This document shows, in pieces, positions 15,335-61,993 of a stretch of DNA of 64,000 nt. The first letter of the stretch is position 1. Every line of letters begins with the position of its first letter. Origin of the DNA: Holophagales bacterium (GTDB lineage: Bacteria > Acidobacteriota > Thermoanaerobaculia > Multivoradales > JAGPDF01). The notes under the pieces are model-generated. The model did not search any database, was not told the DNA's origin, and worked only from the letters and a program-made list of their open reading frames with translations. The translations under genes and the position numbers were made by a program. Where the stretch lies: contig CP064972.1 in assembly GCA_016699405.1 (NCBI GenBank), forward strand, positions 2,696,165-2,760,164, given 5' to 3'.

Positions 15335-28872
<13,538 letters not shown>

Positions 28873-28903
28873 GAAAGCCTCGGGGCCTGGAGTCGAATGG
28901 TGA

Positions 28904-30589: not shown

Positions 30590-30719
30590 GTCGTCGTCTC
30601 CGGTCGGAAGAGTGGACTCACGGCGGCGCGGCTTGCCCGAGCGGGGTGCGAGCGGCGACCTGGAACGCGAGTCGTTCGGCAGCGAGGCTATCGGGGGCGC
30701 TGGTGCGTCACGACCCCCC

Positions 30720-30782
30720 CGAGGGTGGCGAACGCCCCACCCTCACGGTATCTCGCGACAGGCCACCCCTTGGGGTGGGGCA
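30720..30782. promoter_or_regulatory. Clustered short inverted repeats (GAGGGTGG/CCACCCTC and CCACCCC/GGGGTGG) in the divergent ACAD-rarA intergenic region; candidate operator or promoter region
   Basis: cgagggtggcgaacgccccaccctcacgg ... ccaccccttggggtggggc, about 90-140 bp upstream of the rarA ATG and about 130-190 bp upstream of the ACAD start. No -10/-35 could be assigned with confidence. Confidence 0.25.
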
Positions 30783-41605: not shown

Positions 41606-44065
41606 ATGATTCGACACCTGTGCCGTCTTTCGCTGCCGATCGCTCTTGCGCTCCTGCTGGCGCTCGTCGCTCCGCCGCTCCACGCTGGCGTCGACGTCGC
41701 CGATCCGTTCACCGGTGACGGCCCCTGGATGGTGCGGGCCTTCTTCGTCCCCGACGCCGACCGCCAGGAGGTCGGGCGCCGCTTCGATCACTTCTCGGTG
41801 GACCGCAAGAGCGGCGCGCTGCGTCTCTTCGCGGCCGACGCAAGCGACCTCGAGTGGCTGCGTGCCCGCGGCTACTGGCTCGAGCTCGACGAGGCGACCA
41901 CGGCCGCGATGCGCGAGGCGCAGCGCCGCGCCGCCACGGAGCAGACCCTCGCCGGCATTCCGGGATACTCCTGCTATCGGACGGTCGAGGAGAGCTACGC
42001 CACGGCGGACGCCATCGTCGCCGCCCATCCCCAGCTTGCGTCGATCGTCGACATCGGCGACAGCTGGGAGAAGGTCACCGCCGGCGGCAACCCCGGTTAC
42101 GACCTGCGCGTGCTCCGGCTCACCAACTCGGCCGTGCCGGGGCCGAAGCCGCGCTTTCTCCTGCACGGCGCCATCCACGCTCGCGAGTACACCACCGCCG
42201 AGCTGGCGCTCCGCTTCGCCGAACAGCTCGTCGACGGCTACGGCAGCGACGCCGACGCGACGTGGATCCTCGACCACCACGAGGTCCACCTGCTGCTGCA
42301 GGCCAACCCGGACGGCCGCAAGAAGGCCGAAGCCGGCTCGTCGTGGCGGAAGAACACGAACGAGGCGTACTGCGGCGCGACCTCGACCTCCCGTGGCGCC
42401 GACCTCAACCGGAATTTTCCGTTCCAATGGGGCTGCTGCGGCGGGTCGAGCGGTTACCCCGCTACCTGCGCAACGGATTTCCGAGGCGACTCACCGGCCT
42501 CCGAGCCGGAGGTCCAGGCGATCCGCAACTACCTCCTGGCGATCTTCCCGGATCAGCGCGGTCCGGAGCTGACCGATCCGGCGCCGCCCGACGCCAGCGG
42601 GCTCTACCTCGACCTTCACAGCTTCAGCGAGCTGGTGCTCTGGCCGTGGGGGTTCACCTCGACCGTGGCGCCGAACGGCACGGCGTTCGCCACGCTCGGG
42701 CGCAAGTTCGCGTACTTCAACGGCTACATGCCGGAGCAGTCGATCGGTCTTTACCCCACCGACGGCACGACCGACGATTTCGGCTACGGCGAGCTCGGCG
42801 TGGCCTCCTACGCCTGGGAGCTCGGGACCAACTTCTTCGAAGACTGCGTGACCTTCACCTCGACGATCCTGCCCGACAACCTCGCGGCGCTGCGCTACGC
42901 CGCCAAGGTCGCGCGCACGCCCTACCGCACCCCCGCCGGTCCGGACGCCCTGTCGGTCACGCCGAGTGTGAGCGTGGTGGCGCCCGGCGATCCGCTCGCG
43001 GTCACCGCGACCCTCGACGACACGCGCTATTCGAGCGCCGGCGGCGTCGAGCCGAGCCAGCCGATCGCCCAGGCCGAGCTGACGCTCGACACCCCGCCGT
43101 GGGCGGCCGGAGCGGCGCCGATCGCCATGAGCGCCGTCGACGGGGCGTTCGACGAGACGGTGGAGCCGGCGACGGTGGCGGTTCCCACGGCAGGGATCTC
43201 GGAGGGTCGCCACCTCGCCTTCGTGCGCGGGCGCGACAGCGCCGGCAACTGGGGGGCCGTCTCGGCAACCTACCTCACGGTGATGGATCCGCTGACCGCG
43301 CCGACCGTTTACGGAGTCGTTCGCGACGCGACGAGCGGCTCGCCGCTCGCGGCGACGGTGTCTGTCGGGCCGTTCTCGACGACCTCCGACGCCGGTAGCG
43401 GGGCCTATTCGATTCAGGTGCCGACCGGCACGTACGCGCTCGCCGCCTCGGCGCTCGACCACGCCTCGGCCAACGTGGCGGCGGTCACACTCTCCTCCGG
43501 CGATTCGCGCCTCCAGGACTTCTCGCTGGTGCCGTACACGGCGGCGCTCGCGGACGACGTCGAAGGGGGGAACCTCGGCTGGGCGGCCGCGAGCCCGTGG
43601 GCGATCACCAACCTGCAAGCGCATAGCCCATCGCACTCCTGGACCGATTCCCCGGGGGCTGGCGTCGTCTACGGCAACAACGTCGACACCTCGCTGGTCT
43701 CCGCGATCCAAGACCTCTCGCAGGCGAGCGGCGTCCATGTCTCCTTCTGGCAGCGCTACGAAACCGAGCCGACCTTCGACTTCTGCCACGTCGAAGTCTC
43801 GGGCGACGACGGAGCGACCTGGACCGAGCTGGCGAGCTACGACGGGACGCAGTCGACCTGGACCCAAGTGACGCTCGCCGCGCCGCAGCTCGACGGAAAG
43901 GCTCAGGCGCGGATCCGCTTCCGTCTCTCGACCGACGTCTCGGTACAGCGCGACGGCTGCTACGTCGACGATGTCGTGCTGCGCGCGGCGATGGCCCCGA
44001 TTCTTTCCTTTGCCGACGGCTTCGAGAGCGGCACGCTGTCGAATTGGGATGCTTTCGGACTCTGA
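41606..44065 (+). CDS. Secreted M14 zinc carboxypeptidase with carboxypeptidase-regulatory-like and C-terminal MAM-like domains
   Basis: Signal peptide MIRHLCRLSLPIALALLLALVAPPLHA. Zn ligand and catalytic contexts: HGAIHAREYTT (HxxE), NPDGRKKAE, HSFSELVLWPWG. CarboxypepD_reg-like GVVRDATSGSPLAATVSVG. Ends in FADGFESGTLSNWDAFGL. Confidence 0.85.
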   Translation: MIRHLCRLSLPIALALLLALVAPPLHAGVDVADPFTGDGPWMVRAFFVPDADRQEVGRRFDHFSVDRKSGALRLFAADASDLEWLRARGYWLELDEATTAAMREAQRRAATEQTLAGIPGYSCYRTVEESYATADAIVAAHPQLASIVDIGDSWEKVTAGGNPGYDLRVLRLTNSAVPGPKPRFLLHGAIHAREYTTAELALRFAEQLVDGYGSDADATWILDHHEVHLLLQANPDGRKKAEAGSSWRKNTNEAYCGATSTSRGADLNRNFPFQWGCCGGSSGYPATCATDFRGDSPASEPEVQAIRNYLLAIFPDQRGPELTDPAPPDASGLYLDLHSFSELVLWPWGFTSTVAPNGTAFATLGRKFAYFNGYMPEQSIGLYPTDGTTDDFGYGELGVASYAWELGTNFFEDCVTFTSTILPDNLAALRYAAKVARTPYRTPAGPDALSVTPSVSVVAPGDPLAVTATLDDTRYSSAGGVEPSQPIAQAELTLDTPPWAAGAAPIAMSAVDGAFDETVEPATVAVPTAGISEGRHLAFVRGRDSAGNWGAVSATYLTVMDPLTAPTVYGVVRDATSGSPLAATVSVGPFSTTSDAGSGAYSIQVPTGTYALAASALDHASANVAAVTLSSGDSRLQDFSLVPYTAALADDVEGGNLGWAAASPWAITNLQAHSPSHSWTDSPGAGVVYGNNVDTSLVSAIQDLSQASGVHVSFWQRYETEPTFDFCHVEVSGDDGATWTELASYDGTQSTWTQVTLAAPQLDGKAQARIRFRLSTDVSVQRDGCYVDDVVLRAAMAPILSFADGFESGTLSNWDAFGL

Positions 44066-45864: not shown

Positions 45865-47454
45865 GTGCTCCCTCTCGCCGCCAGGCGCCGCTCGCCCCGA
45901 CTCCGGCTGACCCTGCTCGCTCTCGGCCTCGGGATCGTCTCGCTCGCCGTCGCCCGGGAGGGTGGGGCCGCCTGCCTGCCCGCGGCGCTGCCCGCGACGA
46001 GCGCCACCTGGACCACCCTCGGCAACGGGACACCGGGCAGCGTGACGCCGGCGTCGCTGCAGGCGGCCGTCACGGCCGGCGGGTTCGTCCGCTTCGATCT
46101 CGGCGCCGCACCGGTGACGCTCACCCTCACCGCCGAGCTGCAGGTGACCCGCGCCGTGACGATCGACGGTGGCGGTCGGGTGACGCTCTCGGGTGGCGGG
46201 ACGACGCGCCTGATGCGGATCACCAACCCGCAGAACGCGACCTTCACCGTGACCCTGCAGCACCTGACGCTTGCCGACGGGGCGGCGCCGGCGGGCGATG
46301 GCGCGGCGATCGACAAGGCGACCGGCGGCCCCTGGCAGGCGGTGAGCCTGACGCTCGTCGACTGCATCGTCCGCGACAACACGGCGATCGCCAGTGCCCA
46401 GGACGGCGGCGGCGGGGGGATCTACGCGACCGGGATGGACGTGGTCCGGATCCACGGCTGTCGCTTCGAGAACAACCGGGGAAGCAACGGCGGAGCGATC
46501 TACTCGCTCGGCAGCCGGCGCCTGCACGTCACCGATTCGCTCTTCCTCGCCAACCGCGCCACCGGAAGCGGCGGAAATCCGGGCAACGGCGGCAACGGCG
46601 GTGCGATCGGCGTCGACGGTGCGAGCCGCGAGGTGGAGATGTGCGGCGTCCGCTTCTACGGCAATCAGGGCAACGCCTATGGGGCGGCCTTCTTTTCCGT
46701 CGCGTACGACACGGCGAGCCCCACCGACTTCCGCTTCTGCACCTTCGACAGCAACTTCAATCCGACCGCGCAGGGCTTCGCCGGCGCGGTCTACCTCCAG
46801 GGCGGGCCGTTCTCCCTCCGGCAGTCGGTGTTCCGCGACAACGAGGCGAACGGCGTTGGGGCGCTCTTCCTCGGCCCCGGCGCGAGCGGCACGGTCGAGA
46901 ACTGCACCTTCACCGGCAACGTGGCGCGGCAGAGCCTGGCCGGGGCGATCTCGATCGGCACGACGGCGCCGGTGACGATCGCCAGCTCGACGATCGCCGG
47001 CAACTCCGCCCCCGGCGAGGTGGCCTTCGCCGCCGGCATCCGGGTCGACGCGGGCAACGACCTGACGTTGCGCGACACCCTGCTCGTCGGCAACACCGGC
47101 GGCAACGTCTGGAACCCCTGGAACATCCTCAACCCCGCGGCGCACGACGGCGGCGGCAACCTGCAGTGGCCGCGCTTCCGGCCGAACGGCCAGGAGGAGG
47201 TGCGCGCCACGCCGACCGCGCTCTGGGCCGACCCGCAGCTCGGCGCGCCGTGGGGCCACGGTGGCCCGACCGAGACGATGGCGCTCGCGCCGGCCTCGCC
47301 GGCGCGCGGCGCGGCGGCCGGCACGCTCGCCGAGGACCAGCGCGGCGCCGCGCGCGCGGCGCCCTTCGACAGCGGCGCCTGCGAGTCCGCGCCGCTCTTC
47401 TTCGACGGCTTCGAATGGGGCGGCGTCGCCGCCTGGGGCCCGGCGCTGCCGTGA
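45865..47454 (+). CDS. Secreted right-handed parallel beta-helix repeat protein (pectate-lyase-fold, Pmp/adhesin-like)
   Basis: GTG start with GAGGGGAAG upstream, then signal peptide LRLTLLALGLGIVSLAVA. Repeated GGAIY, NGGAI, GNxA and NTGGN beta-helix rungs. Ends in FFDGFEWGGVAAWGPALP. Confidence 0.7.
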   Translation: MLPLAARRRSPRLRLTLLALGLGIVSLAVAREGGAACLPAALPATSATWTTLGNGTPGSVTPASLQAAVTAGGFVRFDLGAAPVTLTLTAELQVTRAVTIDGGGRVTLSGGGTTRLMRITNPQNATFTVTLQHLTLADGAAPAGDGAAIDKATGGPWQAVSLTLVDCIVRDNTAIASAQDGGGGGIYATGMDVVRIHGCRFENNRGSNGGAIYSLGSRRLHVTDSLFLANRATGSGGNPGNGGNGGAIGVDGASREVEMCGVRFYGNQGNAYGAAFFSVAYDTASPTDFRFCTFDSNFNPTAQGFAGAVYLQGGPFSLRQSVFRDNEANGVGALFLGPGASGTVENCTFTGNVARQSLAGAISIGTTAPVTIASSTIAGNSAPGEVAFAAGIRVDAGNDLTLRDTLLVGNTGGNVWNPWNILNPAAHDGGGNLQWPRFRPNGQEEVRATPTALWADPQLGAPWGHGGPTETMALAPASPARGAAAGTLAEDQRGAARAAPFDSGACESAPLFFDGFEWGGVAAWGPALP

Positions 47455-51442: not shown

Positions 51443-52908
<1,466 letters not shown>

Positions 52909-52933
52909 GCCGCGACCGCGTCCACGCAGCGGG

Positions 52934-52976
52934 ACGAAGGGCGAGGTCCGCGAGGGCCTCGCCCTTTCGTTTTGGT
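52934..52976 (+). terminator. Rho-independent terminator downstream of ahcY
   Basis: GC-rich hairpin aagggcgagg-tccgcgagg-gcctcgccctt followed by TCGTTTT. Confidence 0.6.
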
Positions 52977-53068
52977 GCTCTGGAAGCCACCCGGCCGACC
53001 CCGAGCCCGAGCTTTTGCGGCCCGGTGTCGATGGCACTGCGCGCCGACGAGCACGGCACGTGGGCGGC

Positions 53069-53710
53069 TCAGGTCAACCGCCGCCACCCTTCGAGCGCCG
53101 AGAACAGCGCCACGACGAGCAGCAGCAAGCCGACGCCGCGTCCGGCCAGGGCGAGTGCGTGCGGCCGTTCGGTGAGCCAGCGACGCGCGCGCGTCGCGGC
53201 GAGGACGACCACGCCGTAGACGACGAGCTGCGTCGCCACGATCACCCCGCCGAGCGCCGCGGCCTGGAGCGGCACCGCCCCCCATTCAGCGCGCACGAAC
53301 TGCGGAAAGACCGCCAGCATGAAGACGTAGGCCTTCGGATTGAGCAGGTTCGTCAACACGCCACGGCGATAGGCCGTCGGCAGAGCGACCGCCGCCGCGC
53401 TCGTGCCGCGGGTGTCGAACAGCGCCCCGTGGCGCACCATGGCCATCCCGATCCAGGCGACGTAGGCCGCGCCACCGACGAGCAGCGCGTTGAACAACCC
53501 CGGCAGGACGAGGAGGATGGCGGCGATCCCCATCCCCCCGATCGCGACGTGAGCCATCGCCGCCGTCACGATGCCGCCGAGCGACGCGAGCCCGGCGCGC
53601 CTCCCGCCTCCCAGCGTGCACGCCAGGACGCAGGCCATGTCGAGCCCGGGAAGGAGAACGATGCCGAAGACCAAGAGGAAGAAGACCCAGAGGTGCGCCG
53701 CGGGGACCAT
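53069..53710 (-). CDS. LysE/RhtB-family amino-acid exporter
   Basis: About 213 aa from MVPAAHLWVFFLLVFGIVLLPGLDMA (the LysE N-terminal PGxD motif), with six TM helices. Confidence 0.75.
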   Translation of the reverse strand: MVPAAHLWVFFLLVFGIVLLPGLDMACVLACTLGGGRRAGLASLGGIVTAAMAHVAIGGMGIAAILLVLPGLFNALLVGGAAYVAWIGMAMVRHGALFDTRGTSAAAVALPTAYRRGVLTNLLNPKAYVFMLAVFPQFVRAEWGAVPLQAAALGGVIVATQLVVYGVVVLAATRARRWLTERPHALALAGRGVGLLLLVVALFSALEGWRRLT

Positions 53711-53723
53711 CGGTGCGCTCCGC

Positions 53724-54302
53724 TCAACGGGCTCGCCGAGCCCAATCCATGACCCAGTTTTCTTTCCAGGTCTTGCCGTCGTCGGACGAGGTGGCCTGAT
53801 ACCAGCGGCACGAGATCGGCGTGATCCGGTCCCAGCAGCCGCGAACGAGGATCGGCTTGCCGTTGGCGTCGGTGTCGTCGCCATCCCAGGTCCCGACCCC
53901 ATCGGTGAAGCTGCCCCAGGCCGGCTCGGCGCCGAGGACGCCGCTGCGGCGGTTCACCCAGTAGTCGCCCCAGAGCTTCCGCTGGACATCGAGCAGGCGA
54001 AGGCCCATGCCGCTGAAGTCGCGCTCGGGAATCCGCAGCTCCTCGACGCTCGCCATGCCGCCGAGCAGCCCGATGACGGTCGCCTCGCCGCGAAAGCGGT
54101 CCCAGCGGCCGTCCTTCCATTGACGATGTTCGATCGTCCACTCGCCGGTGAGGAAGTCGAAGTCGCCGGGCTTGCCGGAGGCGGCCGGCGGAACGGCGGC
54201 CTCCCGGGCGGTGGTCGTCATGCCGAGCGTGCCGGCGACCGTCAGGCCAGCGGCGATCTGCAGGAGGCTCCTGCGCGCGAGCTCCGAAACGTCGATTCCC
54301 AT
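53724..54302 (-). CDS. Tat-signal secreted protein of unknown function (DUF1579-like size and composition)
   Basis: RRSLLQIAAGLTVAG twin-arginine motif. Trp-rich mature domain (GEWTIEHRQWKDGRWDRFRG...WYQATSSDDGKTWKENWVMDW). Confidence 0.55.
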   Translation of the reverse strand: MGIDVSELARRSLLQIAAGLTVAGTLGMTTTAREAAVPPAASGKPGDFDFLTGEWTIEHRQWKDGRWDRFRGEATVIGLLGGMASVEELRIPERDFSGMGLRLLDVQRKLWGDYWVNRRSGVLGAEPAWGSFTDGVGTWDGDDTDANGKPILVRGCWDRITPISCRWYQATSSDDGKTWKENWVMDWARRAR

Positions 54303-54413
54303 GGGTTCTCCCGTTGCGTGGTCATCGCGGGTCGATTCCCGCCGACGCCTTCTGGGGAGACGCTAGGGCCGCTAGCGGACGTTTTCCGCCCTAATCGTTG
54401 ATACCCTCGCGGC

Positions 54414-55391
54414 ATGAGCTCGTCGACTCGCCGAACGCTCGCGGTGCTCGAGCTGCTGCAAGCGCACGGGCTACTGTCGGGCAGAGAGATCGCCCGCCGC
54501 CTCGGCGTCGATCCCCGCTCGGTGCGGCGCTACGTCGTCGCGCTCGAGGAGATGGGGATCCCGGTCACCGCCGAGCGCGGCGCCGGGGGCGGCTACGCGC
54601 TGGTGGCCGGCTTCAAGCTCCCGCCGATGCTCTTCACCGACGACGAAGCGCTGGCGCTCTCGCTGGGTCTCCTCGCGGCGAGCGCTCTCGGTCTCGGAGC
54701 CGCGGCGGCCGGCCTTGCCAGCGCTCGCGCGAAGCTCGAGCGGGTGATGCCGGCCGACCTGAAGCGCCGGCTGCGCGCCGCCGACGAGACGATGCAACTC
54801 GATCTGCCGGCAGGGGGCCCACCGGCGGCGGGCCATGTCCTGGCGACGCTCTCCGCCGCCGCCCAGGCGCAGCGGACGGTGCGCCTGGTCTACACCGCGG
54901 CCGATCGGAGTCGCACCGCACGCGATCTCGATCCCTACGGCCTCGCCTTCCGCGGTGGCTGCTGGTACGTCGTCGGCCACTGCCATCTGCGCCGGGCGAG
55001 TCGCACCTTCCGCGTCGACCGCATCGCCACCGTCACCCGCACCGCGCGCACCTTCGAACGCCCGAGAGAGTTCGACACTCTCAAGGCGATCTCCACCGCC
55101 ATCGCCACGCTGCCGCGAGCGCACCGTGCGGAGGTCCTCCTCGAGACCGATCTTGCGACCGCGAGAGCGCAGATCGCCGCGACGCTCGGCACCCTCGAGC
55201 CGGTCGAAGGCGGCGTGCTCCTCTCCTCGCAGACCGACGACCTCGCCTGGCTCGCCCGCGAGCTCGCCCGGCTGCCCTTCACCTTCCGACCCAAGGCCCC
55301 GCCCGAGCTCCGCGCCGTGCTGCTGCGCCACCTTCGCGCCATCCGGCGCGCGGTGCTCGCCGAAGAGGCGGAGTCTCCCTCCGCGTCGTAG
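54414..55391 (+). CDS. YafY-family transcriptional regulator (HTH, WYL and WCX domains)
   Basis: N-terminal HTH (RTLAVLELLQAHGLLSGREIARRLGVDPRSVRRYV). WYL core (LDPYGLAFRGGCWYVVGHCHLRRASRTFRVDRI). Confidence 0.8.
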   Translation: MSSSTRRTLAVLELLQAHGLLSGREIARRLGVDPRSVRRYVVALEEMGIPVTAERGAGGGYALVAGFKLPPMLFTDDEALALSLGLLAASALGLGAAAAGLASARAKLERVMPADLKRRLRAADETMQLDLPAGGPPAAGHVLATLSAAAQAQRTVRLVYTAADRSRTARDLDPYGLAFRGGCWYVVGHCHLRRASRTFRVDRIATVTRTARTFERPREFDTLKAISTAIATLPRAHRAEVLLETDLATARAQIAATLGTLEPVEGGVLLSSQTDDLAWLARELARLPFTFRPKAPPELRAVLLRHLRAIRRAVLAEEAESPSAS

Positions 55392-55689
55392 CGATCTGCT
55401 CGCTGCCGTATCGGGCGTGCATGGAGTCGATGTCGTCGGCGTCGCTAGTGGTGAGGCCGAGGTCGCGCTCGTGGCCGGTGAACCTGGCCCGGACGTCGTC
55501 CTGGTTGAGGGAGGTGGCCTCCTTGCCGGTGACGAGGCCGCTGCGGACGGGTGTTTCTCGCCGGTAGGCGATCCGTGACAGGTCCTTGTTCGGTTTGAGC
55601 CTCGAACGGTAGCGAGTGAGAAGAGGGGCGGCGGGAATGGCCGGCGACCCGGACCTACCTGATCGGGTGTTTTGCTGATCCCCGTCCAC
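55392..55689 (-). pseudogene. Truncated tyrosine-recombinase (phage-integrase/XerC-like) N-terminal fragment
   Basis: LSRIAYRRETPVRSGLVTGKEATSLNQDDVRARF resembles the Xer/integrase core-binding domain (LSxNTLxAYRRDL...DDL). The reading frame runs into the 3' end of yafY without a catalytic domain. Local GC is lower. Confidence 0.25.
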
Positions 55690-55741: not shown

Positions 55742-58700
55742 ATGGATCATGCGTCCGCACCGCCGGCGAGGGTTCTCGCCGCCTTTTCACTCGCCTTCCT
55801 TGCCGTCGTCGCGCCGGGATCGCCCGTGGCTCTTGCCGAGGCCGTCCCGTCGGGCTCGACCGCCTTGGCTGCTGGGCCTGCCCCGGAGAGCGAACCGCCG
55901 GCCGGAGCCTCGGGCGAGGCCGTGGCCCTGCGGCAACAGATCACCGACCTGCGCCGGGAGCTCTGGCAGCTCGAGGAGACGCTGGCATTGACGCCGTTCG
56001 AGGTGGGGGAGACGGTGACCGGCGCCGAGTCGCGGCGAGCGGAGATCGGGCGGGTGCTGGAGAGCCTGAGGGCTCGGGTGGGAACGGTTCAAGGAGCCGC
56101 TCCCGACGCCGTGATGGAGGAGCTCCTGCGGGCGAGTGGAGAGAGCGAGTCGTTGCGGGCACGGATCGAGCGGCGGACGGCGCGGCGCAACGCGGTCGGA
56201 CCGCAGTTGCCGTACTCCCCGCAGCGTGAGCCGGGTGATCTCGAGATCGTCCCGACCTCGACGCACACCACCTGCGAGACCGCGCTCGAGCCCGGCTCGA
56301 CCCGTGTGCGGGGGATCGTGCGGCCGGAGGTCTGGTTCCGGGTGCCGGTACCAAGAGCGATGAGGGTGACGTTCCGGTCCGAAGCGCTGGCCGGGGAATT
56401 GGCTCTCTCGTTGCATGATCGCTGCGGAACGGAGCCGCGCTTGGCCTCGGGCGCGCCGCGTCGCTCCGCGTTCCTCACGACGGCCGTCGTGAAGGGTGAC
56501 ATCTGGGTTCGTGTCAAAGGACGGTCGACGACCGATCGTCGGCACGAGACGTTCTCGTTCGAGGTCGTTTTCGCATCGGGAGCGATCTCGGGTCGAGTGA
56601 CCCGCGCCGACGATGGTTCGGGTGTGCAGGTTCGGGTGGTTGCGGTGCCGGTCGACAGCTCGAGCCAGCGTGTCGCTCTCACGACGGAGAATGGCGAGTT
56701 CCTGATCTCCGGCCTCGCGCCCGGGTCGTACCTGCTGTCTCTCCGCGACACCGGCGTCCTGGTTCCGGAGCTGTGGAACGACCATCCCTGCGCCGGCGGA
56801 CCGCCGGTCGGATGTTCGCTGAGCGCCGCGAATCCGGTCGTTGTCAATGACTCTGCGACCACGATGGGCGTCGACTTCCAACTCGAGGTGGGTGGGAGGA
56901 TCGGCGGGCGGGTGTTGCTCCGACCCGAAGCGACGCCACCCACGTCTTCGGCCCTCGTGAAAGTGATGAGCTCGGCGGGGCAACTGGTCGGCTCCGCGGC
57001 GACGGATTCGTTCGGGCGCTATCAACTCTCCGGTCTGCAGGGTGACTACCGCGTGGTGGCTTCGGCTTCCGGCCGGGAGACGCAGATCTTCGATCACGGG
57101 ACCTGCGCCGGGACCTGCATCCCGTCGAGCGGCGCTCCGGTCGTGGTCGGGCCGGGTGTCGACCGAAGCGATGTCGACTTCGACCTGAGCCCCCTCGGTT
57201 CGATTGCCGGCAAGCTCACGAGCACGACGGGTGAGCCGATCGCCAACGGCTACGTCTCCGCGAAGATGATGGGTGATCCGAACAACTCGAGGTACACGAA
57301 CTCGGACGCCAATGGCCGGTACGTGGTCACTCAGTTGCAGCCCGGGAACTATGTGGTCTCGGCGAGTCCCAGCTACTACGAGGCGAAAGTGTGGGGCGGT
57401 GACACCTGCACTTACACGGCCGACTGCTTCACGCAGTGCAACGATGCTTCCGCAACTCCGGTGACCGCGGCGGTCGGTGTGACGACTTCGGGAATCGACT
57501 TCACGCTGCGGCCATTCCCCTCGATCAGCGGCCTGGTGACGAAGGAGGAAGACGGGGCGCCGCTGCCGGGAGTCATCGTACGCAACACCATCCCCGGATT
57601 CTGTCTTTCGACGTGGGACGAGTCGGACGGGGCCGGAACCTACCGACTCGAATCGGCCCAGCCGCGGGAGCACAGGCTCTTTTCCTCCAACGCCCTCGGG
57701 CGCATCGACGAGGTCTACGACGGGTTCTCGTGCGGAATCGATGGCTGCTCGTGGTATTCCGGCCCCTACACGCCGGTGCCAGTCACGCTCGACGGGCCGA
57801 TCGATGGAATCAACTTTGCCCTCTCTCGAGGTGCCTCGATCCAGGGCGTCGTTCGCGACGTTCAGGGGCAAGGAGCAGTTCTCTGTCCGAACGGTGGCGT
57901 TGAGCTCTATTCGGGCACCGGAATGTGGCTCCGGGGAACCTGTCCAGCCGCGGACGGTAGCTATCACTGGGACGGTCTCCCCGCGGGGACCTACTTCGTC
58001 GAGGCCTCGGGCACCGCTTTCGTCGATGAACGGTTTGACGGCGTCCCCTGCGAGGGCGGTTGCGACGGGGGAACCCCGCTCGAGCTCGCCCTCGGCGAGC
58101 AGAGGGGCGGCATCGACTTGACGCTCGACCGCTACGGCCGCATCTTCGGCACCGTACAAGTGCAGGCCGAGCCGAATACGCTCTGTGAGGGACCGACTGC
58201 GGAAGTCGATCTGTGGGACAGCGGCGGGAATCTGCTGCAGACGGTGAACACGGACGGTTTGGGTCGCTATGACCTCAGGGTTCCGACCTCCTTTCCCGTG
58301 CATGTGACGGCACTTGCCTCCCACTGCGAGCGAAGCCTGTACCCGGGCATCAACTGCCCGGGGCAAGTCGGAGTCGATTGCCTTCTTTCGCCGGGGTCTC
58401 GGCTCACGGCGAAGCTGAACGTCGACCTGACAGGGGTCGATTTCACACTGCGACCGGCACCGGGCCTGCGCGGGCGGGTTCTCTCCGATCCCGATGGAGC
58501 TCCGTTGCCCGGTGTCGTCGTCGACCTCTTCGACGCCACCAGCCACGCGCACGTATGGGCCAAGCAGAGCGAAGCCGACGGGAGCTTCCGCATGGACTTC
58601 CTCTGGTCAGGGAGAACGTTCCACCTCGCCACCGACAATGGAGCAGGTGCCGTCGACGAGCTCTGGCAGGACATCCCGTGCCCGAACGGCCCAGCACGGC

Positions 58701-58855
58701 TCGGCCTTTGTGATCTCGGCCTCGCGACGCCGATTCGGCTCCGGGAGTACGAGATCGTCGAAGGCCTCGACTTCGTCCTCTCCCCCTGGCCGGTGTTCAA
58801 GAACGGATTCGAGACCGGGTCGTTTGTCGGCTGGGGTGGGATCAGATCGAACTGA
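55742..58855 (+). CDS. Giant secreted multi-repeat protein (signal peptide, coiled coil, conserved Cys module, ~8 carboxypeptidase-regulatory/Cna-B-like beta-sandwich repeats, C-terminal GFE tag)
   Basis: Signal peptide VLAAFSLAFLAVVAPGSPVALA. Coiled coil LRQQITDLRRELWQLEETLALTP. Module TSTHTTCETALEPGSTRVRGIVRPEVWFRV. Repeats of the GxVxxxxDGAPLPGVxV type. Ends in WPVFKNGFETGSFVGWGGIRSN. GAGGAGGA RBS. Confidence 0.8.
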   Translation: MDHASAPPARVLAAFSLAFLAVVAPGSPVALAEAVPSGSTALAAGPAPESEPPAGASGEAVALRQQITDLRRELWQLEETLALTPFEVGETVTGAESRRAEIGRVLESLRARVGTVQGAAPDAVMEELLRASGESESLRARIERRTARRNAVGPQLPYSPQREPGDLEIVPTSTHTTCETALEPGSTRVRGIVRPEVWFRVPVPRAMRVTFRSEALAGELALSLHDRCGTEPRLASGAPRRSAFLTTAVVKGDIWVRVKGRSTTDRRHETFSFEVVFASGAISGRVTRADDGSGVQVRVVAVPVDSSSQRVALTTENGEFLISGLAPGSYLLSLRDTGVLVPELWNDHPCAGGPPVGCSLSAANPVVVNDSATTMGVDFQLEVGGRIGGRVLLRPEATPPTSSALVKVMSSAGQLVGSAATDSFGRYQLSGLQGDYRVVASASGRETQIFDHGTCAGTCIPSSGAPVVVGPGVDRSDVDFDLSPLGSIAGKLTSTTGEPIANGYVSAKMMGDPNNSRYTNSDANGRYVVTQLQPGNYVVSASPSYYEAKVWGGDTCTYTADCFTQCNDASATPVTAAVGVTTSGIDFTLRPFPSISGLVTKEEDGAPLPGVIVRNTIPGFCLSTWDESDGAGTYRLESAQPREHRLFSSNALGRIDEVYDGFSCGIDGCSWYSGPYTPVPVTLDGPIDGINFALSRGASIQGVVRDVQGQGAVLCPNGGVELYSGTGMWLRGTCPAADGSYHWDGLPAGTYFVEASGTAFVDERFDGVPCEGGCDGGTPLELALGEQRGGIDLTLDRYGRIFGTVQVQAEPNTLCEGPTAEVDLWDSGGNLLQTVNTDGLGRYDLRVPTSFPVHVTALASHCERSLYPGINCPGQVGVDCLLSPGSRLTAKLNVDLTGVDFTLRPAPGLRGRVLSDPDGAPLPGVVVDLFDATSHAHVWAKQSEADGSFRMDFLWSGRTFHLATDNGAGAVDELWQDIPCPNGPARLGLCDLGLATPIRLREYEIVEGLDFVLSPWPVFKNGFETGSFVGWGGIRSN

Positions 58856-58884
58856 GTGCAGACGCGAGCGAGATTCCTCTGGAG

Positions 58885-61800
58885 ATGGACATGAACCCTC
58901 GCCCACACTTCCTGCGACGACTCCTTCGAGTGGTCGTCTGCTGGGCCGGTCTCGTTTCGAGTGCCGGCATGTCCTCGGCCGTGGCCGGACCTGCAGCGCC
59001 GAGCGTGGCCGAGCGCGAGAGCCTGCGTCAGCAAACAACCGAGCTGCGCCGGGAGCTCTGGCACCTCGAGGAGATGCTGGCGCTGACACCGCTCGAGGTG
59101 GGGGAGGCGATCACCGGCGCGGAAGCGCGGCGCGCCGAGATCGAGCGGGCGCTGCGGGGCTTGGCGACTCGCCTCGGAACGAGGTCCGGTATCGCGCCGG
59201 ATGCCGCGAGCGAGGAGCTGCTTCGCGCGCGTGGCGAGCTCGACTCGCTGCAGGCGCGAATCGAGCGGCGGGCGGCGCGGCGAAGCGAGGTCGGACCGCA
59301 GTTGCCGTCCGCTCCGACGCGCGAGCCCGGCGATCTCGAGATCGTCGCCACCTCGACGCACACCACCTGCGAGACCGCGCTCGAGCTCGGCTCGACCCGC
59401 GTCCGCGGGATCGTGCGGCCGGAGGTCTGGTTTCGAGTGAGGGTTCCGAAAGCGACGAACGTGGCGATTCGCGCCGAGGCGCTTGACGAAAGCGTGAGCG
59501 TCACCACCTTCAGCCGCTGCGGAGGAGAAGCACTCGCTTCGTCCGGGTCACCTCTCCAGAACGTACTGTTCACAACTTCAGCCGGGTATGGCGACCTGTG
59601 GATTCGGCTCGCTTCGCGGTCGCAGGGCTCGAGGCGACACAACACCTTCACGATCGATGCGGCGCTCGATGTCGGCTCGATTTCAGGTCGGGTGACGAGA
59701 GCCGACAACGGGGTCGGGGTCTCGACCCAGGTTCAGGCCTATGTCGAGGCCGGCTGGAGCTACCGGACCACCTACTCGAATGAAGATGGTCAGTATTCGA
59801 TTCCAGATTTGCCGCCGGGTTCTTACCGAGTCGTCGTCCCGTACGGGGGCGACCTCGTGGGGGAGCTCTTCGACAATCACCACTGTGCGGGCGGTCCACC
59901 GTTCGGTTGCAGCGTAGCCTCGGGTGACCCGGTCGTAGTGCAGGATTCGACGACGACGCCGGGAATCGATTTCCAACTCGTCGTCGGAGGACACATCGTC
60001 GGGCGAGTGCGGTTGGTCCCGGAAGGGACTCCGCCTGACTCCGCCACCGTGCGGATCCTCACGCCAGGTGGGCAAGACGTGGCGTACGACCTCATCGATC
60101 CGTTTGGTCGCTACGCCATCTCCGGGCTCCAGGGCGAGTACCGTGCCATCGCCGGTGCATCCGGGCGGGAAGGCCAAGTTTACGATCACGTCACTTGTGT
60201 CGGACCTTGCTCGGCTGAGCTCGGAACACCGATCGTCGTCGGTCCGGGAGATGACCGCACGGATGTCGACTTCGACCTGCCTCGGCTCGGAGCGATTGCT
60301 GGCCAGGTTCTCGACTCGTTGGGCAGCCCGATCCCAGGGGCGACTGTCGGCGCCTATGCGGTCAGCACGGGCGGATTCATCGCGTCCGCGACATCGTCAG
60401 CGGATGGTGCCTACCTCATCGAGAGCTTGCCGGCCGGCCTGTACACGGTCACGGCTCGGCCGATGCATCATGAGGCGAAGATCTGGGGAGGCGCAACCTG
60501 CACCTACTCGGAATCGTGCTTTCTCGAGTGTTCCGCAGGGACGCCCGTGTCGGTGTCTCCGCTCCTGACGACGGCGGACGTGGACTTCTCGCTGCGACCG
60601 TTCCAGTCGATCGGAGGCTCGGTTCGCCGAGAAGAGAACGGAGCGCCGCTCGCTGGCGTCATCGTCGCCAACGGGAATGGCTTCTACTGCCAGAGCACGT
60701 GGGGCGAATCGAATGTCGCGGGAGAGTATCGACTGGAGGCGGTGCCCCCGCAGGGGCATCGTTTGCGCACTTCGAACTCGCTCGGCCGCGTCGACGAGGT
60801 GTACGACGGATTCAACTGCGGCCCGAACGGCTGCAGCTCGACCGGGCTGCCGTTTACTTCCGTCCCTGTGAACCTCGACGCTCCCACGGAGGGAATCGAT
60901 TTCTCGCTGGCCCTCGGAGCCTCGATTCATGGCTTCGTCCGCGATTCTCAGGGGCAGGGCGTTTCGGTCTGTGGTCTCGGCGGAGCAGTCCGGCTGCTGT
61001 GGAACGGCGGCGCGCCCCTCGACGACACCTGCAGTGGAGCAGACGGGGCCTTCACCTTCGACACGCTTGCCGCGGGAAGTTACCTCGTCGAAGTCCATGC
61101 GCCCAGCTACAACAGCGAACGGTGGGACAATGTGCCGTGTCAGGCATTCTGTACGGGCGGAACTCCCATCTCCATCGCCCAAGGGGAAGAGCGACACGGC
61201 ATCGACGTTGCTCTCGATCACGCGGGATGGATTCGCGGCACGGCTCTCTCCGGTGACTCGGCGCGACGTTGCTGGTCCAGTGCTTCCATCGCGGCGATGG
61301 ACGCAGGAGGGGCCGTCGTTGCTAGTGGCTACGCTCGCGACGACGGGAGCTTCTTGCTCACCGTGCCGAGCGCGGCTCCGGTTTACGTAACGGCCACAGC
61401 GGGCGGCTGTGAGCGCAGTCTCTTCCCGGGTCTGAACTGTCCCGGCCAGATCGGTGTCGACTGTCTCCTCGCTAGCGGCACGCCGATCTCGGTCGGCTTG
61501 AACCAGGTGGCGGAGAATGTCAACTTCTCACTGCGAGCGGCGCCGAGTCTGAGGGGGCGAGTGCTCCAAGGCCCGGATGGACGACCTGCGCCGGGGGTCG
61601 TAGTCGACGCCTTCCTTGCAGCCGACCACACGAGCGCCGGCTCCGTTCAGTCTGGAGCAGACGGAAGCTACCTGCTCTTGGCCGGCGCTCCGGGAACGGG
61701 CCTCCTGGTCGCGACCGACAACGGCGTCGGCGCCGTCGACGAGCTCTGGCAGAACGTACCCTGTCCGAACGGTCCCGCCTGGCTCGGCCTCTGTGACCTC

Positions 61801-61938
61801 AATCTCGCGACGCCGATTCCGCTGCGGGAGTACGAGGTCGTCACCGGCATCGACTTCGTCCTCTCCGGCTGGCCGGTGTTCAAGAACGGGTTCGAGAACG
61901 GGTCGCTCGTCGGGTGGGGCGGGAGCGTCTCGAATTGA
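58885..61938 (+). CDS. Paralog of the preceding giant secreted multi-repeat protein
   Basis: Same architecture. About 70-80% identity over the N-terminal 180 aa (LRQQTTELRRELWHLEEMLALTP...TSTHTTCETALELGSTRVRGIVRPEVWFRV) and over the C-terminus (WPVFKNGFENGSLVGWGGSVSN). Confidence 0.8.
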   Translation: MDMNPRPHFLRRLLRVVVCWAGLVSSAGMSSAVAGPAAPSVAERESLRQQTTELRRELWHLEEMLALTPLEVGEAITGAEARRAEIERALRGLATRLGTRSGIAPDAASEELLRARGELDSLQARIERRAARRSEVGPQLPSAPTREPGDLEIVATSTHTTCETALELGSTRVRGIVRPEVWFRVRVPKATNVAIRAEALDESVSVTTFSRCGGEALASSGSPLQNVLFTTSAGYGDLWIRLASRSQGSRRHNTFTIDAALDVGSISGRVTRADNGVGVSTQVQAYVEAGWSYRTTYSNEDGQYSIPDLPPGSYRVVVPYGGDLVGELFDNHHCAGGPPFGCSVASGDPVVVQDSTTTPGIDFQLVVGGHIVGRVRLVPEGTPPDSATVRILTPGGQDVAYDLIDPFGRYAISGLQGEYRAIAGASGREGQVYDHVTCVGPCSAELGTPIVVGPGDDRTDVDFDLPRLGAIAGQVLDSLGSPIPGATVGAYAVSTGGFIASATSSADGAYLIESLPAGLYTVTARPMHHEAKIWGGATCTYSESCFLECSAGTPVSVSPLLTTADVDFSLRPFQSIGGSVRREENGAPLAGVIVANGNGFYCQSTWGESNVAGEYRLEAVPPQGHRLRTSNSLGRVDEVYDGFNCGPNGCSSTGLPFTSVPVNLDAPTEGIDFSLALGASIHGFVRDSQGQGVSVCGLGGAVRLLWNGGAPLDDTCSGADGAFTFDTLAAGSYLVEVHAPSYNSERWDNVPCQAFCTGGTPISIAQGEERHGIDVALDHAGWIRGTALSGDSARRCWSSASIAAMDAGGAVVASGYARDDGSFLLTVPSAAPVYVTATAGGCERSLFPGLNCPGQIGVDCLLASGTPISVGLNQVAENVNFSLRAAPSLRGRVLQGPDGRPAPGVVVDAFLAADHTSAGSVQSGADGSYLLLAGAPGTGLLVATDNGVGAVDELWQNVPCPNGPAWLGLCDLNLATPIPLREYEVVTGIDFVLSGWPVFKNGFENGSLVGWGGSVSN

Positions 61939-61993
61939 GGCGAGCGTAGGGGTGAGGCTCGGGCCGCCCGATCCGGGCGGCCCCCGGAGGCCT

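What the first reader, a model, noticed from the sequence alone, without database searches (positions are those of the whole stretch)
55742..61938. Tandem duplicated ~1000-aa secreted proteins with a conserved N-terminal coiled-coil plus Cys-containing module (TSTHTTCETALE-GSTRVRGIVRPEVWFRV) and arrays of CarboxypepD_reg-like repeats
The two adjacent paralogs keep the first ~180 and last ~60 residues highly conserved. The central beta-sandwich repeat arrays have diverged, a pattern typical of surface or adhesin proteins under diversifying selection. The conserved N-terminal module with invariant Cys, His and Glu (HTTCETALE) could be a small catalytic or propeptide-like domain of unknown function. 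The genes sit next to an integrase fragment and a WYL regulator, so they may be part of an acquired island.
Basis: seen in the sequence. Interest (0 to 1): 0.65.

Follow-up and report, generated by a model that had tools for sequence, protein, structure and literature searches.

The report
Polymorphic paired surface-fibre proteins, unmodelled C-terminal tag
Two neighbouring genes of an uncultured Acidobacteriota bacterium encode long, non-enzymatic, exported "beads-on-a-string" proteins of a familiar kind; their supposedly mysterious N-terminal module is a diverged PPC-type binding domain, and the more interesting features are a swappable middle section and a short conserved C-terminal tail shared with many unrelated secreted proteins.

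Summary
Two co-oriented ORFs 29 bp apart (55742-58855, 1037 aa; 58885-61938, 1017 aa) are 54% identical paralogs in a Holophagales/Thermoanaerobaculia-like MAG. Each has a signal peptide, three long helices, one beta-sandwich, seven ~105-aa CarboxypepD_reg units each carrying Cys residues (likely disulfide loops), and a disordered 20-aa tail.

- The "HTTCETALE" module is not catalytic. It is a diverged PPC / GBD_T9SS_assoc-type sandwich, by profile search, hhalign (98.8%) and Foldseek (top hits a collagenase PPC domain and ColG collagen-binding domains).
- The conserved ends are recombination blocks. Synonymous divergence there is half that of the centre, and the 5' block ends in the middle of the PPC domain.
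- In a related strain, flanks 95-98% identical, the central 2.2 kb of gene B is replaced by an allele too diverged to align at DNA level. Pairwise dN/dS stays below about 1 where synonymous sites are not saturated.
- No integrase or tRNA is present. The fragment beside the WYL gene is an orphan RHS toxin remnant.
- The pair lies in a variable segment between conserved core genes and has low GC3.

Most notable is the invariant tail (hydrophobic-F-x-N/D-G-F-E +/- xGxxxxW). It ends three other secreted proteins in this window, 18 of 56 array relatives and at least 82 of 120 homologs of an unrelated beta-helix family. It matches no Pfam or NCBIfam model.

The parts
55742..58855 (+). Gene A, 1037 aa: signal peptide, helical region, PPC-like sandwich, 7 CarboxypepD_reg units, C-terminal tail
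   Evidence: identical to database protein P0003, which NCBI names 'carboxypeptidase regulatory-like domain-containing protein [Holophagales bacterium]'
58885..61938 (+). Gene B, 1017 aa: paralog of A with the same architecture
   Evidence: equals P0001
55742..55837 (+). A: predicted Sec signal peptide (aa 1-32, ...VALA|EA)
   Evidence: read from the sequence; no predictor was run
55916..56197 (+). A: helical region, aa 59-152. The equivalent in B is aa 41-134 (window 59005-59286), modelled as three helices of 25-28 residues.
   Evidence: AF2 model of B: helices 41-67, 73-97, 107-134, pLDDT 65-87; no Pfam hit
56234..56578 (+). A: PPC / GBD_T9SS_assoc-like beta-sandwich (aa ~165-279), containing HTTCETALE and the only two Cys of the module (C178, C228)
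59329..59673 (+). B: PPC-like beta-sandwich (aa ~149-263)
   Evidence: weak direct hit to PF23759, E 0.21
56579..58783 (+). A: seven CarboxypepD_reg units (aa 280-1014). Each is a sandwich followed by an E-[LV]-[WFY]-D..C...C loop and a TP[IV]..(G)[IV]DF.L strand.
59674..61866 (+). B: seven CarboxypepD_reg units (aa 264-994)
   Evidence: AF2 pLDDT about 85-95; Foldseek finds TIE, SdrD-B, Cna-B and pilin stalks
58784..58855 (+). A: C-terminal tail PWPVFKNGFETGSFVGWGGIRSN plus stop codon
61867..61938 (+). B: C-terminal tail GWPVFKNGFENGSLVGWGGSVSN plus stop codon; predicted disordered (pLDDT below 50 for aa 998-1017)
55912..56393 (+). 5' conserved DNA block of A. It repeats at 59007-59488 in B (78-82% nt identity), and its 3' edge coincides with the B/B1 allele breakpoint at 59487.
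58626..58856 (+). 3' conserved DNA block of A. It repeats at 61709-61939 in B (83% nt identity), and its 5' edge coincides with the allele breakpoint at 61706.
59488..61705 (+). Variable central cassette of B. It has no nucleotide-level match in the otherwise 94-98% identical locus L001; amino-acid identity is 26-54% in 50-codon windows.
61961..61983 (.). GC-rich hairpin (GGGCCGCCC-GATCC-GGGCGGCCC) between the convergent gene B and the redoxin gene; a possible bidirectional terminator
   Evidence: sequence; not detected by the terminator scan because it lacks a T-run
55391..55689 (-). 5' remnant of an orphan RHS C-terminal toxin gene. The intact gene is L001 5809-6819 (minus strand).
54414..55391 (+). 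HTH-WYL-WCX regulator. In L001 a 3.1-kb insertion separates it from gene A, so it is not tightly linked to the pair.

Best explanation
A and B are a lineage-specific tandem duplication, probably one operon, of a gene for a Sec-exported, non-catalytic, elongated cell-envelope or surface protein.

Architecture, in order:
- a signal peptide;
- about 95 residues forming three long helices (inferred to be an oligomerisation or attachment module);
- one PPC / galactose-binding-like beta-sandwich (inferred to be a ligand-binding head or spacer);
- a rigid stalk of seven transthyretin / Cna-B-like CarboxypepD_reg domains, each with Cys residues that likely form a disulfide loop in an oxidising extracytoplasmic compartment;
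- a disordered 20-residue C-terminal tail, hydrophobic-F-x-N-G-F-E-x-G-S-x-x-G-W.

The tail is inferred to be a short linear recognition tag for sorting, retention or docking. It occupies the position where relatives carry SLH domains, type IX secretion C-terminal domains or tails with a transmembrane segment and basic residues. It also recurs at the extreme C-terminus of unrelated secreted hydrolases and beta-helix proteins.

The conserved 5' block (about 480 nt) and 3' block (about 230 nt) act as homology arms. They are kept similar between the paralogs by gene conversion, and they allow whole central cassettes (about 2.2 kb) to be exchanged between alleles or copies. This gives strain-level polymorphism of the exposed stalk.

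Shown here: the architecture, the fold assignments, the mosaic divergence, the allele replacement and the positional enrichment of the tail. Inferred: surface location, adhesin or coat function, the role of the tail, and the selective agent behind the polymorphism.
For: Architecture and folds:
- Pfam PF13620, six stretches per protein; seven positionally orthologous units.
- Full-length AF2 model, mean pLDDT 82, with the stalk at about 90.
- Foldseek of the whole model finds stalks of Gram-positive adhesins and pilins: TIE 6fwv, SdrD, Cna B 1d2p, BcpA.

PPC assignment:
- An exhaustive profile search gives 25 hits. In the checked cases (P0060, P0069, P0073) the matched stretch overlaps a PF04151 match; other hits carry PF04151 or PF23759.
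- AF2 domain model pLDDT 72. Foldseek top hits are 5sv5 (PPC domain) and ColG/ColH collagen-binding domains, E 5e-6 to 1e-4, TM up to 0.79.
- hhalign probability 98.8%.

Export:
- Signal-peptide-like N-termini.
- Cys residues in every repeat unit, spaced C-x3 to C-x9.

Recombination:
- pS is 0.29-0.36 in the end blocks and 0.64-0.67 in the centre, with non-overlapping bootstrap intervals.
- The DNA repeats D1-D3 coincide with the allele breakpoints.
- In L001 the flanks are 98.2% and 95.2% identical and gene A is 94.8% identical, but the centre of B cannot be aligned at DNA level. The B1 allele was recovered in three independent assemblies.

Tail:
- Invariant in all four family members and disordered in the AF2 model.
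- 18 of 24 motif matches in 80 proteins lie within the last 20 residues.
- Relatives with the same array end instead in SLH domains, type IX C-terminal domains or tails with a transmembrane segment and RRR.
- Three other secreted proteins in this window end in the tail (S8 protease, M14 carboxypeptidase, beta-helix protein). In the S8 and beta-helix proteins it follows a choice-of-anchor J or Q domain.
- At least 82 of the 120 best homologs of the beta-helix protein end in the tail, and many stop exactly at GFE or GFD.
- The stop codons directly after GFE are genuine.
Against: - There is no experimental localisation. No signal-peptide predictor was run, and no outer-membrane translocation route was identified in the window.
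- The tail has no transmembrane segment and resembles no characterised sorting signal. It also resembles the first strand of choice-of-anchor J / MAM-like domains: an internal copy lies exactly at such a domain start in the S8 protein. It could therefore be a structural or vestigial element.
- The helical region has no detectable homolog, and its oligomeric state is unknown.
- The PPC assignment does not reach Pfam thresholds directly. The hhalign test used segments selected by the same profile, so it is not independent.
- The polymorphism rests on two strains plus one distant single-copy relative. Pairwise dN/dS gives no positive-selection signal.
- GC3 below the genomic norm could reflect foreign origin rather than in-situ diversification.
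Confidence: 0.6

Rival explanations
1. One reading: the conserved N-terminal module, with invariant Cys, His and Glu, is a small catalytic or propeptide-like domain of unknown function, and the repeats merely present it.
For: C178, H175 and E179 are invariant in the four known family members. No Pfam model hits the region directly.
Against: - The module is a PPC/GBD-type beta-sandwich.
- CETAL aligns with the opening CxxA-type motif seen at the start of several related sandwich domains.
- The invariance comes from only four sequences whose 5' ends are homogenised by recombination (pS 0.29).
- The conserved block stops in the middle of the domain, which is not what a functional unit would show.
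- The second half of the same domain is only 35% identical between A and B.
Confidence: 0.04
2. The pair is cargo of a horizontally acquired genomic island, and its composition and polymorphism reflect recent import rather than in-situ recombination.
For: - GC3 is 0.80 and 0.76 against 0.84-0.97 for 25 other genes in the window, roughly 3-4 standard deviations below their mean.
- The segment LysE-hyp-WYL-A-B is absent between the conserved DsbD_N/redoxin and AdoHcyase genes in Thermoanaerobaculia ACID-4.
- The neighbourhood shows insertion/deletion of an RHS toxin cassette and a GT87 gene between strains.
- Only four protein clusters with the full architecture were found among 5.8 billion.
Against: - There is no integrase, transposase, tRNA or flanking direct repeat.
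- The pair is at the same locus in the related strain. A 71%-identical single-copy homolog sits next to the same redoxin gene in a more distant relative, L004. This indicates vertical descent within the clade.
- The repeat-array family is typical of Acidobacteriota/Thermoanaerobaculia.
Confidence: 0.15
3. The C-terminal tail is not a sorting or docking tag. It is a structural leftover, for example the first strand of a lost MAM / choice-of-anchor-J-type domain or a generic inter-domain linker, and A and B are simply released or periplasmic proteins.
For: - The same motif begins a choice-of-anchor J domain internally in the S8 protein (aa ~702) and precedes a further domain in P0009.
- The tail lacks the transmembrane segment typical of exosortase, sortase or rhombosortase signals.
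- No cognate machinery was identified.
Against: - There is strong positional enrichment at the very C-terminus in two unrelated families, and many proteins end exactly at GFE or GFD.
- The tail is invariant in A, B, P0002 and P0004 while neighbouring sequence varies.
- It is predicted disordered rather than packed on the last domain.
- It alternates with recognised anchors at the same position.
Confidence: 0.3
4. A and B are phage- or defence-related, for example receptor-binding fibre-like proteins or WYL-regulated defence components, rather than cellular surface proteins.
For: There is an adjacent WYL regulator. There are faint Ig_J (tip attachment protein J) similarities. The centre is hypervariable.
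Against: - There are no phage structural, replication or lysis genes in the neighbourhood.
- In L001 a 3.1-kb insertion on the other strand separates the WYL gene from A.
- Sec signal peptides and disulfide-type Cys pairs indicate export.
- PADLOC was not run.
Confidence: 0.03

Closest known systems
CarboxypepD_reg (PF13620) repeat proteins of Acidobacteriota/Thermoanaerobaculia
   Same: They share the same ~100-aa unit, a sandwich followed by a [EL]-Y-D-x-x-P-C-x3-C loop and a GTP[IV].V...GIDF.L strand. Identity over the array is 24-32%. They have an N-terminal signal peptide followed by a helical stretch, and many end in the same F-x-[DN]-G-F-E tail.
   Different: A and B have 7 units where the complete relatives have roughly 15. 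They carry an extra PPC-like domain between the helices and the array. Their helical region shows no detectable similarity to those of the relatives. Only four clusters share the full A/B architecture.
PPC, the bacterial pre-peptidase C-terminal domain (PF04151), including collagen-binding domains of clostridial collagenases (PDB 5sv5, 1nqd, 2o8o), and GBD_T9SS_assoc (PF23759)
   Same: The fold matches (Foldseek E 5e-6, TM up to 0.79). Remote sequence homology is detected. The sequence pattern is shared: C-x-x-A...(D/E)VW[FY].[FV].VP...[LV].[LV]y..CG...W[IV]R[LV]...F.
   Different: Here the domain is near the N-terminus of a non-peptidase, not at the C-terminus of a protease. It does not reach Pfam thresholds directly. 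The Ca-binding and collagen-binding residues were not examined.
B-repeat / Cna-B stalks of Gram-positive MSCRAMM adhesins and pilins (SdrD, Cna, BcpA, B. anthracis TIE)
   Same: Tandem prealbumin-like sandwich domains form an elongated stalk, which gives the best whole-model Foldseek hits. There are weak hits to PF17210 SdrD_B and PF17802 SpaA.
   Different: There is no LPXTG or sortase signal. The organism belongs to a diderm phylum. Isopeptide bonds were not assessed; the stabilising element here appears to be Cys loops. Sequence identity is only 8-12%.
Recognised C-terminal sorting or anchoring signals (PEP-CTERM, MYXO-CTERM, GlyGly-CTERM, type IX secretion C-terminal domain, SLH) that follow 'choice-of-anchor' domains
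   Same: The tail sits at the extreme C-terminus, directly after choice-of-anchor J/Q domains or after the last repeat. It alternates with those signals among homologs.
   Different: The tail is only 7-22 residues long, has no transmembrane helix or basic cluster, is predicted disordered, and matches no Pfam or NCBIfam model. Its function is untested.

Membership tests
CarboxypepD_reg (PF13620) repeat-containing protein | Significant match to PF13620 above the gathering score (32.3 bits), in repeated copies | tested here: met
   157.8 and 168.8 bits, six stretches in each protein; seven units by alignment and in the AF2 model
PPC / pre-peptidase C-terminal domain (PF04151) or GBD_T9SS_assoc (PF23759) | Direct Pfam match above the gathering score | tested here: not met
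   No hit for A. B hits PF23759 at E 0.21, 12.3 bits, against a cutoff of 27.
PPC / pre-peptidase C-terminal domain (PF04151) or GBD_T9SS_assoc (PF23759) | Remote homology and the beta-sandwich fold of PPC and collagen-binding domains | tested here: met
   Profile hits fall on PF04151/PF23759-bearing proteins, with overlap checked in P0060, P0069 and P0073. hhalign gives 98.8% but is not fully independent. Foldseek top hits are 5sv5, 2o8o and 1nqd.
PPC / pre-peptidase C-terminal domain (PF04151) | Typical context: C-terminal to a secreted peptidase and removed on maturation | tested here: not met
   The domain is near the N-terminus and no peptidase domain is present in A or B.
MSCRAMM / sortase-anchored adhesins (SdrD, Cna) | LPXTG sorting signal and a ligand-binding A region | tested here: not met
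   The C-terminus is the GFE tail, with no LPXTG or transmembrane segment. NF012181 MSCRAMM_SdrD scores only 14 bits against a cutoff of 2500.
SLH-anchored S-layer proteins / Kustd1514-type S-layer glycoprotein | SLH domains (PF00395), or a full-length match to NF052345 | tested here: not met
   There is no SLH in A or B. NF052345 scores 54 bits against a cutoff of 1400, so the similarity is at domain level only. SLH is present in relatives P0006-P0008.
Type IX secretion system cargo | C-terminal Por_Secre_tail domain (PF18962) | tested here: not met
   There is no PF18962 hit in A or B. It is present in some relatives.
PEP-CTERM / exosortase-type or rhombosortase-type cargo | C-terminal motif followed by a transmembrane helix and a basic cluster | tested here: not met
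   The last 35 residues have no long hydrophobic run followed by a basic cluster, and there is no NCBIfam sorting-signal hit.
Integrase-mediated genomic island | Integrase or recombinase gene, a tRNA or other att site, flanking direct repeats, atypical composition, and patchy distribution | tested here: inconclusive
   No integrase, no tRNA and no flanking repeats were found. However, GC3 is low, and the segment is variable between strains and absent at the syntenic site in L005.
Genes under diversifying (positive) selection | dN/dS above 1 at sites or regions | tested here: inconclusive
   Pairwise Nei-Gojobori dN/dS is 0.36 (A against B) and 0.49 (B against B1). The few windows near 1 coincide with saturated synonymous sites. 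Too few alleles are available for site models.
RHS polymorphic toxin (neighbouring remnant only) | RHS repeat-associated core domain (TIGR03696) followed by a variable C-terminal toxin and an immunity gene | tested here: met
   L001 5809-6816 (minus strand) scores 48.3 bits against a cutoff of 32.5 and contains a DPSGL motif. The window retains only the first ~100 codons, which give no hit on their own. The immunity role of the 134-aa neighbour is inferred.

The most novel reading that the evidence does not exclude
The invariant C-terminal tail, hydrophobic-[IF]-F-x-[DN]-G-F-[ED], either ending the protein there or extended by S-G-D-x-S-x-W plus 3-6 residues, is a previously unmodelled C-terminal sorting, retention or docking signal. 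It is used by many Sec-exported proteins (proteases, carboxypeptidases, beta-helix proteins, repeat fibres) in Thermoanaerobaculia and other Acidobacteriota and in Xanthomonadales-like Gammaproteobacteria, and is handled by machinery still to be identified. On this reading A and B are polymorphic cargo of that system, with conserved ends that act as recombination arms for swapping exposed cassettes.
Probability: 0.3. Interest if true: 0.75.

Novelty: new variant of a known kind. Interest (0 to 1): 0.4.

Why it matters
The pair on its own is an ordinary kind of object: a large repeat-built exported protein that NCBI already annotates generically. Two aspects have wider value.

First, the locus is a clean natural example of 'conserved arms, swappable cassette' evolution in a poorly studied phylum. 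Breakpoints can be mapped to within a few bases, and gene conversion between tandem paralogs is evident. This explains why sequence conservation here does not mark a functional module.

Second, the short C-terminal tail recurs at the exact C-terminus of hundreds of unrelated secreted proteins across two phyla. It sits where recognised sorting signals sit, yet matched no Pfam or NCBIfam model and gave no hit for the motif string in the searchable literature. If it is a sorting or attachment signal, it would define a new cargo class. It would also make an open question testable in cultured relatives such as Dokdonella, Ahniella and Marinicella: how Acidobacteria and Xanthomonadales target proteins to the cell surface or the medium.

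Tried and rejected
- Word-indexed homolog search with the N-terminal 246 aa of A returned nothing, not even the protein itself. I treat this as an unreliable negative. The exhaustive profile search was used instead.
- Scans of genome contigs and metagenome contigs with the family alignment (patterns EPGDLEIV, REPGDLEI, RPEVWFRV) found no relatives. The full architecture is therefore rare in those collections, and presence or absence across GTDB genomes could not be surveyed directly. A DsbD_N-anchored synteny search gave one informative genome, L005.
- BLASTP of A's helical region against the helical N-terminus of the relative P0006 gave no similarity. Homology of the helical regions is not claimed.
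- Literature searches for 'DGFESG', for 'DGFE' with secretion signal, for choice-of-anchor, and for Thermoanaerobaculia S-layer returned nothing relevant.
- The promoter/terminator scan gave no promoter and no more terminators than chance.
- Considered and rejected: a functional link between A/B and the adjacent DsbD_N/redoxin genes. That gene pair is conserved without A/B in L005.
- Considered and rejected: WYL as a dedicated regulator of A/B. L001 has a 3.1-kb insertion between them.
- Considered and rejected: a lipoprotein reading of B's 'VVVCWAG'. It is not a canonical lipobox, judged by my own reading of the sequence.
- Not run: PADLOC, PHROGs and signal-peptide predictors.

Full report
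OBSERVATION

Both are on the + strand, 29 bp apart, and a GAGGAG ribosome-binding-like sequence precedes A. BLASTP gives 54% identity over about 1000 residues with only 12 gaps.

Pfam finds CarboxypepD_reg (PF13620) at E 9e-47 and 3e-50, with six stretches in each protein. Alignment of the units shows seven positionally orthologous units of 100-109 aa. Unit Ai is 41-64% identical to Bi, against 18-37% between different units. The array therefore predates the gene duplication.

The database copies of these proteins (P0003 = A, P0001 = B) come from a 5.2-Mb contig of a 'MAG: Holophagales bacterium'. NCBI names them 'carboxypeptidase regulatory-like domain-containing protein'.

ARCHITECTURE

A full-length AlphaFold2 model of B (27-sequence alignment, mean pLDDT 82) gives these elements:
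- a signal-peptide helix at residues 8-21;
- three long helices at 41-67, 73-97 and 107-134 (pLDDT 65-87);
- a disordered linker;
- a beta-sandwich at about 151-260;
- seven well-predicted beta-sandwich domains at 264-995 (pLDDT about 85-95);
- a disordered tail at 998-1017 (pLDDT below 50).

Foldseek of the whole model finds the stalks of Gram-positive adhesins and pilins: B. anthracis TIE, SdrD, Cna B repeats and BcpA.

Every repeat unit carries Cys residues spaced C-x3 to C-x9, in the pattern E-[LV]-[WFY]-D..C...C. Together with the signal-peptide-like N-termini, this argues for an oxidising extracytoplasmic location. That is an inference; no predictor or experiment was available.

THE N-TERMINAL 'CYS MODULE'

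Pfam and NCBIfam do not hit this region directly. The best result is PF23759 at E 0.21, for B only.

An exhaustive HMMER search of 1.84 billion representatives, using a profile of the four known copies, found 25 proteins at E up to 1e-3, several with 3-11 matching stretches. The hits I scanned carry PPC (PF04151) or GBD_T9SS_assoc (PF23759) domains, and in P0060, P0069 and P0073 the matched stretch overlaps the PPC match. They share the pattern C-x-x-A ... (D/E)VW[FY].[FV].VP ... [LV].[LV]Y..CG ... [FY][IV]RV ... F.

An AF2 model of the module is an eight- to nine-strand sandwich (pLDDT 72). Its best PDB matches are the PPC domain of B. anthracis collagenase (5sv5) and the collagen-binding domains of ColG and ColH (E 5e-6 to 1e-4, TM up to 0.79). 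hhalign between the module and the PPC/GBD segments gives 98.8%, although those segments were selected with the same profile.

So 'HTTCETALE' aligns with the opening motif of a PPC / galactose-binding-like sandwich, not with a catalytic centre.

WHY THE ENDS ARE CONSERVED

Nei-Gojobori analysis by region gives the following proportions of synonymous differences (pS) between A and B:
- helices: 0.35;
- residues 153-205: 0.29;
- tail: 0.36;
- second half of the PPC domain: 0.60;
- repeats 1-6: 0.67.

The bootstrap intervals of the ends and the centre do not overlap. Silent sites are therefore also conserved at the ends, which indicates gene conversion or shared recent ancestry rather than protein-level constraint alone.

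At the DNA level the conserved blocks are 55912-56393 matching 59007-59488 (78-82% identity) and 58626-58856 matching 61709-61939 (83%). The 5' block ends in the middle of the PPC domain.

STRAIN COMPARISON

Protein P0004 is 51% identical to B overall but nearly identical over its first ~150 residues. It lies on a 35.6-kb metagenome contig, L001, that is syntenic with the window: AdoHcyase, LysE, hypothetical, WYL..., A', B', redoxin, DsbD_N, BipA.

Nucleotide identity to the window is as follows:
- 98.2% upstream (51980-55378);
- 94.8% across gene A;
- 92-98% for B up to 59487;
- undetectable from 59487 to 61706 (amino-acid identity 26-54% per 50-codon window);
- 95.2% from 61706 onward.

The breakpoints coincide with the edges of the paralog-conserved blocks. 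The B' allele occurs in three independent assemblies, so a chimeric assembly is unlikely. The centre of B' is about equally distant from A and from B, which implies a pool of old, divergent cassettes.

Pairwise dN/dS is 0.36 for A against B and 0.49 for B against B'. Values near 1 occur only where synonymous sites are saturated. Codon-level positive selection is therefore not shown, while cassette replacement is.

IS IT AN ISLAND?

GC3 of A and B is 0.80 and 0.76, against 0.84-0.97 for 25 other genes in the window.

L001 carries an extra 3.1 kb between WYL and A: a GT87 glycosyltransferase, an orphan RHS C-terminal toxin gene (TIGR03696, E 1e-12, with a DPSGL motif) and a 134-aa gene that is possibly its immunity partner. 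The window keeps only the 5' remnant of the RHS gene (55391-55689, minus strand).

No integrase, tRNA or flanking repeat is present.

A 71%-identical single-copy homolog, P0002, lies next to the same redoxin gene in a more distant relative, with a different upstream context. In Thermoanaerobaculia ACID-4 (DsbD_N 54% identical), the core genes BipA, DsbD_N, redoxin, AdoHcyase and ArsR-methyltransferase are conserved, but the intervening segment holds ABC-transporter and other genes instead of LysE, WYL, A and B.

The pair is thus accessory and sits in a variable segment. Within its clade it appears to be vertically inherited, with a lineage-specific duplication.

THE C-TERMINAL TAIL

The last ~20 residues, WPVFKNGFE.GS..GW plus five more, are invariant in all four family members. 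Evidence that this is more than a family quirk:
- Three other secreted proteins in this window end the same way. These are an S8 subtilase (33659-36367...VFAGDFESGSMAQWSATYPAVP), an M14 carboxypeptidase (41606-44065...SFADGFESGTLSNWDAFGL) and a beta-helix protein (45865-47454...LFFDGFEWGGVAAWGPALP).
- In the S8 and beta-helix proteins the tail follows an NCBIfam 'choice-of-anchor' J or Q domain. From my own knowledge, such domains are defined by preceding varied sorting signals.
- Among the 56 array relatives, 18 end in the motif, 7 of them exactly at GFE, RFE, RFQ or GFD. Others end in SLH domains, type IX C-terminal domains or tails with a transmembrane segment and RRR.
- In 80 proteins, 18 of 24 motif matches lie in the last 20 residues.
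- The stop codons directly after GFE are genuine, with 240-290 nt of intergenic DNA following.
- As an independent test, at least 82 of the 120 best homologs of the beta-helix protein end in the tail. The long form (...IFADGFESGDTSAWS...) appears in named Thermoanaerobaculia and Acidobacteriota hits. The short form, stopping at ...LIFADGFE or GFD, appears in named Xanthomonadales, Marinicella and Wenzhouxiangellaceae hits.
- No Pfam or NCBIfam model covers the tail, and literature searches for the motif returned nothing.

A caveat: the motif also opens a choice-of-anchor J / MAM-like domain internally in the S8 protein. A structural or vestigial origin therefore cannot be excluded.

MECHANISM

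The mechanism I commit to, with confidence about 0.6 for the class and about 0.3-0.4 for the role of the tail, is this. A and B are Sec-exported, non-catalytic fibres, whose length I estimate at tens of nanometres. They consist of a helical base (oligomerisation or attachment), a PPC-type binding domain, a stalk of seven Cys-bearing domains and a flexible C-terminal recognition tag. The conserved 5' and 3' blocks serve as homology arms for gene conversion and cassette exchange, which generates strain-level surface polymorphism.

What is shown is the architecture, the folds, the mosaic divergence, the allele replacement and the positional enrichment of the tail. What is inferred is the surface location, the adhesin or coat role, the tag function and the selective agent behind the polymorphism.

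COMPARISON WITH KNOWN FAMILIES AND VERDICT

A and B are members of the CarboxypepD_reg repeat proteins and remote members of the PPC superfamily. They work like the stalks of MSCRAMM adhesins and pilins, but they fail the defining anchor tests for MSCRAMM (LPXTG), SLH S-layer proteins, type IX cargo and PEP-CTERM cargo.

The pair is a new variant of a known kind and is moderately interesting. The N-terminal 'mystery domain' is explained. The cassette polymorphism and, above all, the unmodelled C-terminal tail are the leads worth following.

Noticed in passing
window 33659-36367 (+), 41606-44065 (+), 45865-47454 (+); also L005 minus-strand ORF with stop at 3377: Three other secreted proteins in the window (an S8 subtilase, an M14 carboxypeptidase and a beta-helix/choice-of-anchor Q protein) and a 689-aa ORF in a Thermoanaerobaculia genome end in the same tail, hydrophobic-F-x-D-G-F-E-x-G-x4-W. 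At least 82 of 120 homologs of the beta-helix protein, from Acidobacteriota and Xanthomonadales-like bacteria, also end in it, many exactly at GFE or GFD. No Pfam or NCBIfam model covers it and no literature hit was found.
   Followed up: partly
window 55391-55689 (-); L001 3704-6819: This is the remnant of an orphan RHS C-terminal toxin gene. The related strain (L001) has the intact 336-aa gene (TIGR03696 core, DPSGL motif, ~190-aa C-terminal domain of unknown type), a 134-aa putative immunity gene and a GT87 glycosyltransferase, inserted between the WYL gene and gene A. The deletion endpoint in the window abuts the WYL stop codon.
   Followed up: partly
window 35762 (aa ~702 of the S8 protease, 33659-36367): An internal copy of the GFE-x-G-x4-W motif (VYDFGFETGLGGWASSG) lies exactly at the start of the choice-of-anchor J / InhA-like MAM domain. 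The C-terminal tails therefore resemble an orphan first strand of that domain type.
   Followed up: no
window 15338-29271 (-), 28907-30742 (-): A single-chain multidomain acetyl-CoA carboxylase-like ORF (biotin carboxylase, BCCP, ACC_central, carboxyltransferase; ~1850 aa) lies next to a ~3000-aa KS-AT-ACP-KR-DH polyketide/PUFA-type synthase and an acyl-CoA dehydrogenase. This is a lipid or polyketide cluster unrelated to the finding.
   Followed up: no
window 53724-54302 (-): A 192-aa protein with a twin-arginine-like N-terminus (RRSLLQIAAG) has no Pfam or NCBIfam hit. It is conserved next to LysE and WYL in L001.
   Followed up: no
(tool behaviour): The word-indexed protein search with the N-terminal 246 aa of A returned no hit, although the identical full-length protein (P0003) is in the database. 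Negative results from that tool on short or low-complexity queries should not be trusted.
   Followed up: yes
L008 7026-8975 and L009 5277-7214: Two distant array relatives that end exactly in ...FANGFE or ...FASGFE are each followed by a secreted S15/PepX_C (CocE/NonD-type) hydrolase gene. This may be a conserved neighbourhood.
   Followed up: no
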